Shown here: positions 5,075 through 57,267 of the stretch, piece by piece
Layout: each line of letters opens with the position of its first letter
Numbering within the stretch: the stretch's first letter is position 1
Assembly (NCBI GenBank): GCA_038211765.1
Contig: JBBQVG010000001.1
Span: 1,837 to 65,836 of the forward strand
Direction: 5' to 3'
Length of the DNA stretch: 64,000 nt
DNA from: Minisyncoccia bacterium
GTDB taxonomy: Bacteria > Patescibacteriota > Minisyncoccia > Phycocordibacterales > PALSA-1337
Position numbers and translations under genes: made by a program
Notes under the pieces: generated by a model
Told to the model about the DNA's origin: nothing
The model's database searches: none
Seen by the model: only the letters and a program-made list of their open reading frames with translations

Positions 5075-5126
5075 CCCAAGACCTACCCTTGCGTGGCGTG
5101 CCCGCCACGCAAGGGTAGGTCTTGGG
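5075..5126. repeat. REP-like palindromic doublet (24-bp perfect inverted repeat, 4-nt spacer) built on the CAAGACCTACCCTTG core
   Basis: 'cccaagacctacccttgcgtggcg tgcc cgccacgcaagggtaggtcttggg'. The same 15-18-mer core recurs at 56468, 57067, 57171, 57250(rc) and 61937. Confidence 0.65.
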
Positions 5127-55922: not shown

Positions 55923-56393
55923 ATGAAAAAGTACACAAAGGGTTTTACCCTCATCGAATTGCTCGTGGTCATCGCTATCATCGGTATTCTTTCGTCAGTT
56001 GTGTTGGTTAGTTTGAATACGGCTCGAAGTAAGGGTGCAGATGCAAAAGTTCAGTCACAAATGTCCTCTATCAGAAGTGCTGCTGAGTTGATCTATGGTA
56101 ATAACAATACTAACTACGGCACAGGCTCAGCTAGCTTGAATTGCGGAACCCTTCTAACAGATACGACTTCAGGAATGGTTAATATCCTGACTGCTACCAA
56201 TTGGCCTAACAGTACCGCCCCAGTATGTAATGCGAAGGCTTCAGCTTCTCCATATGCAGTTACAGGATATGCAATGTGGCATGCCCTTGTTTCGGACACA
56301 ACAAAGTTCGTATGTGTCGACAGCACTGGCGCATTAGTTACCATCAGTGAAGCACCTACAGCAGGAAACAGTTGTGCAAACGGAGCTCTCTAA
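55923..56393 (+). CDS. pilA: type IV pilin (major pilin candidate)
   Basis: Class III signal 'MKKYTKG|FTLIELLVVIAIIGILSSVVLVSL', Glu at +5, C-terminal Cys pair. Confidence 0.85.
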   Translation: MKKYTKGFTLIELLVVIAIIGILSSVVLVSLNTARSKGADAKVQSQMSSIRSAAELIYGNNNTNYGTGSASLNCGTLLTDTTSGMVNILTATNWPNSTAPVCNAKASASPYAVTGYAMWHALVSDTTKFVCVDSTGALVTISEAPTAGNSCANGAL

Positions 56394-56465
56394 TGTAATA
56401 TAATTCCATTATAGGTTCAAAACCACCCACTACCCAGTGGGTGGTTTTGCGTACCACCCCCCACC

Positions 56466-57084
56466 CCCAAGACCTACCCATGCAGGGGTCCCTGCCAGGG
56501 TTGGGCTTGGGGGGCGATGAGCGCCGTCGGTGGCCGATCCTCACCCAGATAATCTTTGTAGCTTGAGTACTCATAGGTCTTGGAATACCGAATCGCTTCT
56601 TCGAGGTGTTCAAGCCTTGCGGATTTCATCATATCCGGCTTTTCGATCCCAAAAGGATTGAGGTGAATATACTGGATCAAATACCTCATATAGTCATCAC
56701 TATTTATATATTTTGACTTGTATTGACCCTGAAAGAGGGTTCCTGAGTGATCGTATTTGCGGTTGTAGTACATTGAATACGCGCAACACAGTTTGTGTAT
56801 GAAGGTGCTTATTCCTTTGTCGGTATTTTCCCTTGCGATGATGTGGAAATGGTTGGGCATCAGACAATAGACCAGAATGCTTACGTAAGGGCTCGTGCGT
56901 TCGCATGAGAAGATTTTTTGGGTATTGAGTTCGTTGAACCGCAAAGGGTTGTTATTGTTGGCAATATAGAGGAGGCACAAAAACCTCCAATAATCCGCCT
57001 CGTCTAGGAATATCGGCGCTTTATGAGCCCCGCGATTGTATATGTGATGATATTCTGACATTTTCTACAAGACCTACCCTTGTA
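56466..57084. mobile_element. RAYT/IS200-like unit with flanking REP-like sequences inserted between the two pilin genes
   Basis: Gene plus flanking CAAGACCTACCC(A/T)TG copies. Sits in the pilA1-pilA2 intergenic space. Confidence 0.55.
56474..57061 (-). CDS. tnpA: IS200/IS605-family Y1 HUH transposase, probably REP-associated (RAYT-like)
   Basis: HUH 'LMPNHFHII', catalytic Tyr region 'RYLIQYIHLNP'. 195 aa. The REP-like core CAAGACCTACCC overlaps its stop (56468-56480) and abuts its start (57067-57084). Confidence 0.7.
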   Translation of the reverse strand: MSEYHHIYNRGAHKAPIFLDEADYWRFLCLLYIANNNNPLRFNELNTQKIFSCERTSPYVSILVYCLMPNHFHIIARENTDKGISTFIHKLCCAYSMYYNRKYDHSGTLFQGQYKSKYINSDDYMRYLIQYIHLNPFGIEKPDMMKSARLEHLEEAIRYSKTYEYSSYKDYLGEDRPPTALIAPQAQPWQGPLHG

Positions 57085-57170
57085 CTCGTAGTCTAGGACA
57101 AGCAGGTTCAATTCCTGATAAAAAAATGTTCAAGAATTGTTCAAAAAATGTTCAATTTTTCTTAAATTCT

Positions 57171-57267
57171 CCACAAGACCTACCCTTGTACTCCACGCAA
57201 TGTGGTACAATCATCATATGAATATTCAAAAGAAATCTTACGAGGGGTGCAAGGGTAGGTCTTGTGG
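57171..57267. repeat. REP inverted pair (REPIN-like) spanning the promoter/-10 box and leader codons of pilin 2
   Basis: 'ccacaagacctacccttg' (57171-57188) ... 58 nt containing 'tacaat' and the ATG ... 'caagggtaggtcttgtgg' (57250-57267). The right arm encodes 'CKGRSCG' of the leader. Confidence 0.65.

What the first reader, a model, noticed from the sequence alone, without database searches (positions are those of the whole stretch)
57171..57267. Pilin-2 promoter and leader peptide are built from a REP inverted pair
An 18-bp inverted repeat (CCACAAGACCTACCCTTG / CAAGGGTAGGTCTTGTGG) brackets the -10-like TACAAT, the ATG, and the first ~16 codons of the second pilin. The right arm is translated as 'GCKGRSCGG', giving an atypically long Cys/Gly-rich prepilin leader before G|FTLVE. 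A mobile repeat may have been exapted into both regulatory and coding sequence. The hairpin could gate pilin-2 expression.
Basis: seen in the sequence. Interest (0 to 1): 0.65.

Follow-up and report, generated by a model that had tools for sequence, protein, structure and literature searches.

The report
Mobile palindrome inserted in pilin leader
A short mobile palindromic repeat, spread by a transposase-like gene that sits between two pilin genes of a Patescibacteria (Paceibacteria-type) genome, has landed next to the second pilin's promoter and in frame inside its cleaved-off leader peptide; related lineages show the same thing, and it looks tolerated rather than a proven switch.

Summary
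The inverted repeat is real. Perfect 18-nt arms lie at 57171-57188 and 57250-57267, extend to 30 nt at 87%, and form the longest close-range inverted repeat in the window. Its 15-nt core is the window's most repeated word.

The repeat family flanks an intact IS200-like Y1 (HUH) transposase gene (56474-57061, minus strand), in a REPtron-like layout.

The closest relative (L001) has no transposase and no repeat, and its leader is 11 aa (MKKTSYEFVRA|F).

The promoter part does not:
- The extended -10 (TGGTACAAT, 6 nt before the ATG) is conserved in all nine loci read, with or without repeats.
- It lies between the arms, so a leaderless mRNA would lack the left arm and could not form the -53 kcal/mol hairpin.

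New here:
- Orthologous transposase genes sit between pilin-1 and pilin-2 in eight further locus types.
- Three other lineages carry their own palindromic units in frame in the same leader.

Best reading: local repeat spill-over filtered by selection. A switch is not excluded.

The parts
55923..56393 (+). Pilin-1 (156 aa, leader MKKYTKG|FTLIEL)
   Evidence: Pfam N_methyl 37.2 bits. It has its own extended -10, TGCTATAAT, about 60 nt upstream.
56418..56449 (+). Intrinsic terminator-like hairpin after pilin-1 (14-bp perfect stem followed by TTTT)
   Evidence: (I5). It limits read-through towards pilin-2.
56464..56513 (.). Degenerate REP-1 doublet (24-nt arms, 83% complementary, 2-nt gap) that overlaps the 3' end and stop codon of the transposase gene
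   Evidence: I3; 56468 with 1 mismatch, 56495 with 3 mismatches. The same layout occurs in L042 4557-4615, L040 4562-4611 and L100 4110-4155.
56474..57061 (-). Intact RAYT-like Y1 (HUH) transposase gene, 195 aa
   Evidence: Pfam Y1_Tnp 35.2 bits against a cut-off of 23. NCBIfam REP_Tyr_transpos 40.9 bits against a cut-off of 80. The HFH motif (H71, H73) and Y131 of YIHLNP are invariant in 22 homologues. PDB profile matches to ISDra2 TnpA and E. coli TnpA-REP are weak.
57065..57087 (+). REP-1 copy immediately 5' of the transposase ATG (core 57068-57082)
   Evidence: D1, D2. Analogous copies lie before the transposase ATG in L042 (3974-3993) and L040 (3970-3992).
57106..57160 (.). AT-rich array of GTTCAA/TGTTCAA repeats spaced 22, 11 and 11 nt, in the divergent spacer between the transposase gene and pilin-2
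   Evidence: D3, D4. Similar phased TGAAGAAAT / TAGAAnnAT repeats lie upstream of pilin-2 in L001, L101, L103, L099, L100 and L042. Function not tested.
57171..57200 (+). Left arm: REP-1 copy (core 57174-57188) at -47 to -18 relative to the pilin-2 ATG
   Evidence: I1. L001 has no such copy in its 129-nt spacer.
57203..57211 (+). Extended -10 promoter element TGGTACAAT, 6 nt before the ATG; it predicts a leaderless mRNA
   Evidence: TGnTAnnnT lies 6-7 nt before the pilin-2 ATG in 9 of 9 loci. In 13 over-extended annotations it is read as (C/W)YNxxM. The same geometry precedes other long ORFs of the window, at 32465, 43723, 52985 and 61266.
57218..57799 (+). Pilin-2 (193 aa); the 20-aa leader is encoded by 57218-57277
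   Evidence: Pfam N_methyl 23.4 bits. 643 homologues found. The mature part has dN 0.216 against L001 with dS saturated, so the gene is constrained.
57238..57267 (-). Right arm: REP-1 copy in inverted orientation (core 57250-57264) inside the leader coding sequence. The inserted unit is about 24 nt (57244/5-57267/8).
   Evidence: Deleting the 24-nt unit gives MNIQKKSYEGGG|FTLVEL. L001 has 12 nt where the window has 33 nt.
57266..57277 (+). (GGC)4 run encoding GGGG, ending at the -1 Gly of the cleavage site
   Evidence: Read. Its origin is inferred only (repeat flank, or slippage).
57806..58612 (+). Prepilin peptidase (A24 family), expected to remove the leader
   Evidence: Pfam A24_N_bact 94.4 bits and Peptidase_A24 40.7 bits.
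5075..5126 (.). Compact REP-1 doublet (24-nt perfect arms, 4-nt gap) 52 kb away, in intergenic DNA after a terminator
   Evidence: I2. It shows that the family is dispersed beyond the transposase locus.
61938..61952 (+). REP-1 core inside ligA, read as Q-D-L-P-L, with no length change against the orthologue

Best explanation
A RAYT-like Y1 (HUH) transposase gene with its own short palindromic repeats lives between the two pilin genes of the type IV pilus locus. This is a REPtron-type arrangement. The repeat unit (REP-1) is roughly CAAGG-GTAGG-TCTTG.

Shown:
- Copies of the unit have accumulated around the gene.
- One copy lies at -47 to -18 of the pilin-2 promoter region.
- One copy of about 24 nt lies in the opposite orientation, in frame, in the pilin-2 leader-peptide coding sequence. 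It lengthens the leader from about 12 to 20 residues and adds K and R.

Inferred:
- The insertion survives because the leader is cut off by the prepilin peptidase encoded just downstream, so the mature pilin is unchanged.
- Pilin-2 is transcribed from a conserved extended -10 that lies between the arms, as a leaderless or near-leaderless mRNA.
- The long hairpin therefore cannot form in that transcript. It matters only on single-stranded DNA, the likely transposase substrate, or in rare read-through RNA.

The bracketing is therefore mainly a by-product of local repeat spread plus selection. It is not shown to be a built-in regulator.
For: Repeat family and transposase:
- Core counts exceed chance, and this is the top repeated k-mer.
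- The ORF is a Y1_Tnp member with the HUH motif and the catalytic Tyr.
- Copies flank the gene on both sides.
- Further copies lie 52 kb away and in ligA.

Insertion:
- L001 is syntenic but has no transposase gene and no repeat, and its leader is 11 aa.
- Removing the unit restores a canonical leader.
- The homologue leader mode is 10 aa.

Recurrence with lineage-specific units:
- L103 has a 21-nt unit. Without it the leader reads MKNISHISKG|F, close to the repeat-free leader of homologue P0099 (MKNISKISKG|F).
- L101 has a 27-nt unit; without it the leader reads MKKITTLSRA|F.
- L099 has a 30-nt palindrome; without it the leader reads MKNILMTRA|F.
- The L101 and L103 units match repeats just upstream in the same locus. 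The L099 palindrome does not.

Synteny:
- Orthologous transposase genes lie between or beside the pilin genes in L040/L041, L042, L099, L100, L101, L102 and two JGI contigs.

Promoter:
- The extended -10 lies 6-7 nt before the ATG in 9 of 9 loci.
- The same geometry occurs at other gene starts in the window.
- RNA with both arms folds at -53 kcal/mol (z = -7.0). RNA from the ATG onward is unremarkable (z = 0.68).
- The unit alone folds at only -4.8 to -5.6 kcal/mol.

Precedent:
- Intragenic REPs, including at N-termini and in DNA ligase, are documented (PMC3733652).
Against: - The transcription start is inferred from promoter geometry. It has not been measured.
- Recurrence argues that pure neutrality may be too simple. 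Four lineages carry a palindrome at +21 to +51 of the same leader. Three of them read it in the same orientation and frame (x-K/Q-x-R-S/P-x). Repeats abut the pilin-2 promoter in the window and four further loci (L042, L100, L102, L103), and lie about 55-75 nt upstream of the ATG in L101.
- The whole genome was not available, so the family's copy number and the transposase's copy number are unknown.
- REP-1 carries GTAG in the hairpin loop, not as a 5' foot.
- The transposase scores below the NCBIfam RAYT cut-off.
- The ligA copy has no length change. Simple insertion does not explain that.
Confidence: 0.68

Rival explanations
1. The repeat copies on either side of the pilin-2 promoter and start are a selected regulatory device. 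They would be binding sites for the transposase-like protein or another factor. Alternatively, the leader copy forms a hairpin about 20 nt into a leaderless mRNA that tunes translation or stability.
For: - The architecture recurs in independent lineages with different repeat sequences (window, L101, L103; a palindrome in L099).
- The transposase gene keeps its place between the pilin genes in eight further locus types.
- The leader units are read in the same frame and orientation in three lineages.
- The leader hairpins are stable in L103, L101 and L099 (-12.7 to -18.6 kcal/mol).
Against: - The closest relative, L001, lacks everything yet keeps a conserved pilin-2.
- The geometry differs between lineages. 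The two copies are direct in L103, inverted in the window and L101, and a single self-contained palindrome in L099. L040, L042, L100 and L102 have no leader copy.
- The window's own unit is a weak hairpin (-4.8 kcal/mol).
- Positive charge and the absence of stop codons can explain the shared frame.
- Clustering of REPs around their transposase gene is typical of REPtrons (PMC6006769).
Confidence: 0.17
2. The two inverted copies bound an invertible or excisable 61-nt module that carries the -10 and the start codon. That would be a phase-variation switch for pilin-2, operated by the adjacent Y1 transposase or by replication template switching.
For: - Inverted repeats flank a promoter plus start codon next to a DNA-cleaving enzyme gene.
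- After in-silico inversion, an in-frame ATG with no stop remains in the window (MMIVPHCVEYKGRSCGGGG|F) and in L101 (MGRTDQVRPGHVSRA|F).
Against: - No sequence variant has been observed. L103 and L104, from two different samples, are identical in this region.
- An in-frame ATG after inversion is expected about one time in three by chance.
- The inverted state has no good -10 at the right distance.
- Y1 HUH transposases are known for single-strand cut-and-rejoin reactions, not for inversion (my own knowledge).
- A 61-bp segment is very short for recombinational inversion.
- In L103 the copies are direct repeats.
Confidence: 0.07
3. The 15-mer is not a transposase-driven repeat. It is a DNA-uptake-type or other genome-wide signal that accumulates by mutation and recombination, including inside genes.
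For: - The ligA copy (61938) has no indel against L001, and several codon differences point towards the motif.
- One site is an inverted pair next to a terminator.
- The locus encodes a pilus machine.
Against: - Five of the nine copies or near-copies cluster within 800 nt of the transposase gene.
- Density is only about 1 per 10 kb.
- Each related lineage has a different unit that matches the copies around its own transposase gene.
- There are no exact copies in L001.
- Scans of public genomes and metagenomes gave only scattered single matches in unrelated organisms.
Confidence: 0.03
4. Pilin-2 is a decaying gene, or it starts elsewhere, so the long leader is an annotation artefact.
For: The database protein P0001 is annotated from TTG 57137 (220 aa), which shows that the start is uncertain to annotators.
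Against: - The ORF is intact and 71% identical to L001 over the mature part, with dN 0.216 and dS saturated.
- There is no in-frame start between 57218 and FTLVE.
- The ATG sits at the conserved 6-nt distance from the extended -10.
- The peptidase gene follows directly.
Confidence: 0.03

Closest known systems
REPtrons / REP-RAYT (REPIN-RAYT) systems of Proteobacteria (E. coli TnpA-REP, Pseudomonas REPINs)
   Same: - A Y1 HUH transposase-like gene is flanked by its own short palindromic repeats, partly as inverted doublets.
- The gene sits at a conserved chromosomal position across related lineages.
- Each lineage has its own cognate repeat.
- Repeat copies occur elsewhere in the genome (PMC6006769 and PMC3116915).
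   Different: - The host is a Patescibacteria (CPR) genome.
- The protein scores below the NCBIfam RAYT equivalog cut-off (40.9 against 80).
- GTAG lies in the hairpin loop and is not a 5' single-stranded foot.
- The conserved home of the gene is inside a type IV pilus operon.
- Genome-wide abundance is unknown.
Intragenic REPs and Rickettsia palindromic elements (in-frame repeat insertions in protein-coding genes)
   Same: - A short palindromic repeat is inserted in frame, adds a peptide segment, is absent from orthologues and leaves the protein intact.
- Di Nocera et al. 2013 (PMC3733652) report such inserts, often at N-termini and in replication or repair genes, including DNA ligase.
- The window's ligA also carries repeats.
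   Different: - Here the target is a cleaved signal (class III leader) peptide, so the mature protein is not altered.
- The same leader has been hit in at least four lineages by different units.
Neisseria Correia repeat-enclosed elements (my own knowledge)
   Same: Small elements bounded by inverted repeats that land next to genes. They can alter promoters and can place a long hairpin in the 5' part of transcripts.
   Different: - Correia elements are 100-150 bp units with their own promoter parts and no dedicated adjacent transposase gene.
- Here the -10 is ancestral, and the two arms are separate copies of a 24-nt unit.
Invertible promoter switches of fimbrial and pilin genes (e.g. E. coli fimS) (my own knowledge)
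   Same: Inverted repeats bracket a pilus-gene promoter next to a gene for a DNA-breaking and rejoining enzyme.
   Different: - No second orientation has been observed.
- The enzyme is an HUH Y1 transposase, not a tyrosine or serine site-specific recombinase.
- The segment is only 61 bp.
- One arm is coding sequence.

Membership tests
RAYT / REPtron | Y1 HUH transposase domain with the HUH motif and the catalytic tyrosine | tested here: met
   Pfam PF01797 35.2 bits against a cut-off of 23. HFH (H71, H73) and Y131 of YIHLNP are invariant in 22 homologues. The profile gives weak matches to ISDra2 TnpA (E = 0.037) and E. coli TnpA-REP 4ER8 (E = 0.24).
RAYT / REPtron | Equivalog-level sequence match to characterised RAYTs (NCBIfam NF047646, cut-off 80 bits) | tested here: not met
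   40.9 bits, E = 1.7e-10. It is a related but distinct clade. JGI labels some homologues 'REP element-mobilizing transposase RayT'.
RAYT / REPtron | The gene is flanked on both sides by copies of one palindromic repeat family | tested here: met
   A doublet at 56464-56513 on the 3' side. Copies at 57065-57087, 57171-57200 and 57238-57267 on the 5' side. The same layout is seen in L040, L042, L099, L100 and L105.
RAYT / REPtron | Many copies of the repeat dispersed through the genome, mostly extragenic | tested here: inconclusive
   Only two sites away from the locus within 64 kb, at 5075-5126 and 61938. The rest of the genome is not in the searchable collections. For the L100-type repeat, one copy was found in a distant locus, L105.
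RAYT / REPtron | A GT[AG]G tetranucleotide as a single-stranded foot next to the hairpin | tested here: not met
   In REP-1 the GTAG lies in the loop (CAAGG-GTAGG-TCTTG), as it does in L042 (CGCAGG-GTAGA-CCTGCG). A second family in the window, GTAG-GTGAATC-TACT-GATTCAC, is canonical.
RAYT / REPtron | The protein cleaves and rejoins its repeat on single-stranded DNA | not testable with these tools
   This needs biochemistry.
Type IV prepilin (class III signal peptide) | G/A|F-x-x-x-E cleavage and methylation motif followed by a hydrophobic helix | tested here: met
   Pfam N_methyl 23.4 bits against 21.2. TIGR02532 23.4 bits against 16.3. The motif is GGGG|FTLVELMV.
Type IV prepilin (class III signal peptide) | A short, positively charged leader and a cognate prepilin peptidase | tested here: met
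   The leader is 20 aa with net charge +3 (3 K, 1 R, 1 E). It is long for this family (mode 10) but within the observed range of 4-24. The A24 peptidase gene is at 57806-58612. Cleavage itself was not tested.
In-frame intragenic REP insertion | A repeat copy inside an ORF, in frame, absent from orthologues, with the host ORF intact | tested here: met
Invertible promoter switch | Both orientations of the segment are present in sequence data | not tested
   No reads are available for the window's source sample. The only comparison possible was for another locus: L103 and L104, from two samples, are identical in this region.
Invertible promoter switch | A dedicated tyrosine or serine site-specific recombinase | tested here: not met
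   The only adjacent enzyme gene is Y1_Tnp.

The most novel reading that the evidence does not exclude
In a clade of Paceibacteria (Patescibacteria/CPR), a domesticated Y1 transposase is a fixed component of the type IV pilus locus. With its cognate hairpins placed on either side of the pilin-2 promoter and start, it would operate a switch that turns the second major pilin on and off or changes its level. The switch could work by excision, by inversion, or by protein binding on single-stranded DNA. The leader-peptide copy would be a functional half-site, not a passenger.
Probability: 0.12. Interest if true: 0.8.

Novelty: new variant of a known kind. Interest (0 to 1): 0.5.

Why it matters
REP-RAYT systems and in-frame REP insertions are known, mainly from Proteobacteria.

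This locus adds three things:
- A RAYT-like gene that keeps a fixed place between two pilin genes across divergent Patescibacteria.
- Repeat hairpins with an atypical layout, with GTAG in the loop.
- A cleavable leader peptide that repeatedly serves as a safe landing site for mobile palindromes.

It also gives a practical annotation lesson. Long or odd prepilin leaders, and over-extended starts such as P0001, can be repeat artefacts. If the arrangement proves regulatory, it would be a new way for a domesticated transposase to control a surface structure that these epibiotic bacteria are thought to depend on.

Tried and rejected
- **Finding the rest of the genome or close relatives that carry REP-1.** The genome-contig scan with MCAAGACCTACCCTTGYR gave 37 single matches in unrelated taxa. 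The metagenome scan for the paired pattern gave nothing. The scan for the single pattern gave 56 single matches. None of these loci has a transposase or pilin homologue, and only two of them show any similarity to the window, each about 100 nt or less in unrelated parts of it. The exact pilin-2 protein as annotated (P0001) is not in the contig index.
- **Chance inverted repeat.** Rejected.
- **Known RNA family.** Only sub-threshold matches of the long hairpin to miRNA-precursor models, 19-28 bits against gathering scores of 90-230.
- **Plasmid origin.** No match.
- **Sigma-70 scan requiring a -35.** It found no promoter at pilin-2. The case for the promoter rests on the conserved extended -10.
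- **The left arm as a -35.** TTGTAC at 57186-57191 is only 14 nt from the -10. Rejected.
- **Single-sequence PDB search with the transposase.** No meaningful hit; a profile was needed.
- **dN/dS for pilin-2.** dS is saturated, so only dN could be used.
- **Literature.** Searches for RAYT in Patescibacteria, for REP in pilin leaders and for leaderless mRNAs in Patescibacteria found nothing relevant.

Full report
**1. Observation**

With mismatches allowed the arms grow to 30 nt (57171-57200 / 57238-57267, 87% complementary). In RNA, G-U pairs give a 24-bp stem. No other inverted repeat in the window with arms up to 90 nt apart is as long.

The 15-nt core CAAGACCTACCCTTG occurs exactly six times: 5077+, 5110-, 57068+, 57174+, 57250- and 61938+. 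A one-mismatch copy lies at 56468, and there are two three-mismatch copies. The total is 9 against 1.28 expected by shuffling, and no shuffle of 100 reached 9. It is the most repeated 11-14-mer in the window.

The arms enclose TGGTACAAT (57203-57211), the ATG at 57218 and the first ten codons. The right-arm core is read as CKGRSC within MNIQKKSYEGCKGRSCGGGG|FTLVEL.

**2. What the repeat is**

Between pilin-1 (55923-56393) and pilin-2 lies a minus-strand ORF, 56474-57061, of 195 aa.
- It passes the Pfam threshold for the IS200-like Y1 transposase domain (35.2 bits against 23).
- Its best NCBIfam hit is 'REP-associated tyrosine transposase', but below that model's cut-off (40.9 bits against 80).
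- The HUH motif (HFH) and the tyrosine of YIHLNP are invariant among 22 homologues.
- A profile gives weak matches to ISDra2 TnpA and E. coli TnpA-REP.

The gene is flanked by the repeat. A degenerate doublet overlaps its stop codon (56464-56513). One copy abuts its ATG (57065-57087). The two arms of the finding follow. A compact perfect doublet lies 52 kb away, after a terminator (5075-5126).

This is the layout called a REPtron in Proteobacteria (PMC6006769). I call the family REP-1. Its unit is a weak hairpin, CAAGG-GTAGG-TCTTG, with GTAG in the loop. It folds at -4.8 to -5.6 kcal/mol on its own.

**3. Comparison with relatives**

*The closest relative.* The closest pilin-2 orthologue is P0002 (67% identity), from locus L001 in GCA_040384245.1.
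- L001 is syntenic from the secretion ATPases to ligA.
- Its pilin-1/pilin-2 spacer is only 129 nt, with no transposase gene and no copy of the repeat.
- Its leader is MKKTSYEFVRA|F.
- At the DNA level, TCT TAC GAG [TTT GTT CGA GCC] TTC in L001 corresponds to TCT TAC GAG [GGG TGC AAG GGT AGG TCT TGT GGC GGC GGC GGC] TTC in the window.
- Deleting one 24-nt unit from the window leaves MNIQKKSYEGGG|F.

*Leader lengths.* Among 113 homologues the leader mode is 10 aa. Only three leaders, counting the window's own, reach 20 aa or more.

*Constraint.* The mature pilin is under constraint: dN is 0.216 against L001 and dS is saturated. A prepilin peptidase gene follows directly.

**4. The promoter**

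In all nine loci for which I could read DNA, an extended -10 (TGnTAnnnT) lies 6-7 nt before the pilin-2 ATG. The nine are the window, L001, L040, L042, L099, L100, L101, L102 and L103. In 13 database proteins with over-extended N-termini the same element is read through as (C/W)YNxxM.

Within the window the same geometry precedes other long ORFs, at 32465, 43723, 52985 and 61266. Of the 15 occurrences of the pattern, 10 precede ORFs of at least 60 aa.

Three conclusions follow.
- The -10 and the start codon are ancestral, not repeat-derived.
- The geometry predicts a leaderless or near-leaderless mRNA. This is an inference; no transcript data exist.
- The left arm (-47 to -18) would then be outside the transcript.

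RNA containing both arms folds at -53 kcal/mol (z = -7.0). RNA starting at 57216 folds no better than shuffled sequence (z = 0.68). The left arm also offers no -35 hexamer at a usable spacing. The pilin-1 terminator (56418-56449) limits read-through. 'Hairpin gating' of the normal mRNA is therefore not supported.

**5. A wider pattern**

*The transposase gene keeps its place.* The nearest homologues of the transposase (55-68% identity) were checked wherever a contig could be read. In every case the gene lies between pilin-1 and pilin-2, or directly upstream of pilin-2:
- L040/L041
- a JGI contig
- L042
- a second JGI contig
- L099
- L100
- L102, where the gene is split
- L101, where the transposase N-terminus was read from the sequence

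A more distant paralogue, P0163, lies elsewhere in locus L105 and has a different repeat of its own.

*Each lineage has its own hairpin unit*, with the common format stem, 5-nt loop, stem. Most have an AGG-N5-CCT top. Examples:
- CGCAGG-GTAGA-CCTGCG and CCGAGG-GTAGG-CCTCGG in L042
- CCGAGG-TGGAA-CCTCGG in L040 and L100
- TGCGCAGG-AGAGA-CCTGCGCA in L103
- CAGG-TCAGA-CCTG in L101

*Repeats sit directly upstream of the pilin-2 -10* in L100, L042, L102 and L103.

*Three more lineages carry a palindromic unit in frame in the same part of the leader.*

| Locus | Unit | Position | Leader with the unit | Leader without it |
|---|---|---|---|---|
| L103 | 21 nt | +24 to +44 | MKNISHIS[AQERPAH]KG\|F | MKNISHISKG\|F |
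| L101 | 27 nt | +21 to +47 | MKKITT[LDVQVRPGHV]SRA\|F | MKKITTLSRA\|F |
| L099 | 30 nt | about +21 to +51 | MKNILMTDVAPRGATSTRA\|F | MKNILMTRA\|F |

- The L103 leader without its unit is close to the repeat-free leader of homologue P0099, MKNISKISKG|F.
- The L103 unit is identical to a copy that abuts the -10.
- The L101 unit is inverted relative to upstream copies, as in the window.

The window is thus one instance of a recurrent outcome.

**6. Interpretation**

The simplest account has two parts. REPs pile up around their transposase gene, which is a known REPtron property. Of the neighbouring coding sequence, only the cleaved leader tolerates extra residues.

The frame used in three lineages gives x-K/Q-x-R-S/P-x. 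This adds positive charge, which suits a leader. One alternative frame of the window's unit contains a stop codon.

This account explains several things:
- why the units differ between lineages but match local copies;
- why their removal restores canonical leaders;
- why L001 can lack everything;
- why orientation varies (direct in L103, inverted in the window and L101).

It does not fully explain the conserved home of the transposase gene inside the pilus locus, or the repeated use of the same leader segment. I therefore keep a regulatory reading at about 0.17 and a switch reading at about 0.07.

An in-silico inversion of 57189-57249 still leaves an in-frame ATG (MMIVPHCVEYKGRSCGGGG|F), and the same is true in L101. 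This is expected by chance about one time in three. There is no good -10 in the inverted state. Two independent samples of the L103 locus are identical.

**7. Relation to known systems**

Intragenic REPs are documented. They often lie near N-termini and in replication or repair genes, including DNA ligase (PMC3733652).

The window fits this pattern beyond pilin-2. Its ligA carries:
- two in-frame copies of a third, GTAG-type palindrome (61603-61619 and 61669-61685), a 25-aa insertion against L001;
- a REP-1 core with no length change (61938);
- a cluster of a second, canonical GTAG repeat that starts at its stop codon.

L100's ligA has an in-frame doublet of its own repeat. No paper in the searchable library links REPs to prepilin leaders or RAYTs to Patescibacteria pilus loci.

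I therefore class the finding as a new variant of a known kind. It is a REPtron with atypical hairpins, resident in a pilus operon, with the leader peptide as a recurrent landing site.

**8. Limits**

- The source genome beyond this window could not be reached, so family size and transposase copy number are unknown.
- The transcription start, leader cleavage and transposase activity are all inferred.
- The loci with long leaders (L101, L102, L103) were picked because their leaders were long, so the frequency of repeat-bearing leaders cannot be read from my sample.

Noticed in passing
window 61938-61952 (ligA): An exact REP-1 core (19 nt shared with the 57065 copy) lies inside ligA, read as VQDLPLY where L001 has SDGLPLF. 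There is no length change, and divergence is locally much higher than in the flanks. It looks like an overwritten patch, not a simple insertion. L042 and L100 have similar length-neutral repeat copies inside their own transposase genes (L042 4123-4140; L100 3681-3737). The mechanism is unexplained.
   Followed up: partly
window 61603-61619 and 61669-61685 (ligA): Two in-frame copies of a third palindrome, CCTTCGCCGAAGG followed by CTAC (GTAG-type), form a 25-aa insertion (PAFAEGYGEAKP twice) that is absent from L001 and L100. ligA also has other lineage-specific insertions, and L100's ligA holds an in-frame doublet of that genome's own repeat.
   Followed up: partly
window 7766, 14121, 52926, 63485-63615: A second repeat family with canonical REP anatomy (CCCA-GTAG-GTGAATC-TACT-GATTCAC) lies at intergenic sites. 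A tandem cluster of it begins at the ligA stop codon and supplies the last residues of ligA. The orthologous spacers in L001 are short and lack it. No cognate transposase gene is seen in the window.
   Followed up: partly
window 57106-57160; also L001, L042, L099, L100, L101, L103 upstream of pilin-2: Phased AT-rich repeats about 11 nt apart (TGTTCAAnnnn in the window; TGAAGAAAT or TAGAAnnAT elsewhere) lie upstream of the pilin-2 promoter in all lineages. This may be a regulator-binding or UP-like array. In the window the 30-nt left arm sits between this array and the -10.
   Followed up: no
window 22001, 30626, 32465, 43723, 52985, 57218, 61266: Extended -10 elements (TGnTAnnnT) lie 5-8 nt before the ATG of several long ORFs. 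This suggests that leaderless mRNAs are common in this genome.
   Followed up: partly
window 57137-57217: The identical database protein P0001 is annotated from TTG 57137 (220 aa). Its extra 27 residues translate the left repeat arm and the promoter, so this is an annotation artefact. The transposase ORF 56474-57061 itself has no identical entry in the protein database; the best hit is 68% identical.
   Followed up: yes
L102 1382-2000: In this relative the transposase gene is split. A 151-aa C-terminal ORF and a separate N-terminal fragment (MHIINEHYHVYNRG) are separated by a copy of the local repeat (1855-1875). The repeat apparently disrupted its own transposase gene.
   Followed up: no
L001 5935-5955: The repeat-free relative has CCACAAAGGGTAAT in its pilin-1/pilin-2 spacer. 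This faintly resembles a collapsed REP-1 pair (CCACAAG...AAGGGTAGG). It could be a scar of a lost REPtron or a chance resemblance.
   Followed up: no
L040 2361-2426 and 4678-4992: This locus has toxin-antitoxin genes (HEPN/NTase) and a short fragment of a second transposase C-terminus inserted between the pilin genes. It also has a minus-strand ORF between the transposase gene and pilin-2. The pilin-1/pilin-2 spacer seems to be a general hot spot for insertions.
   Followed up: no
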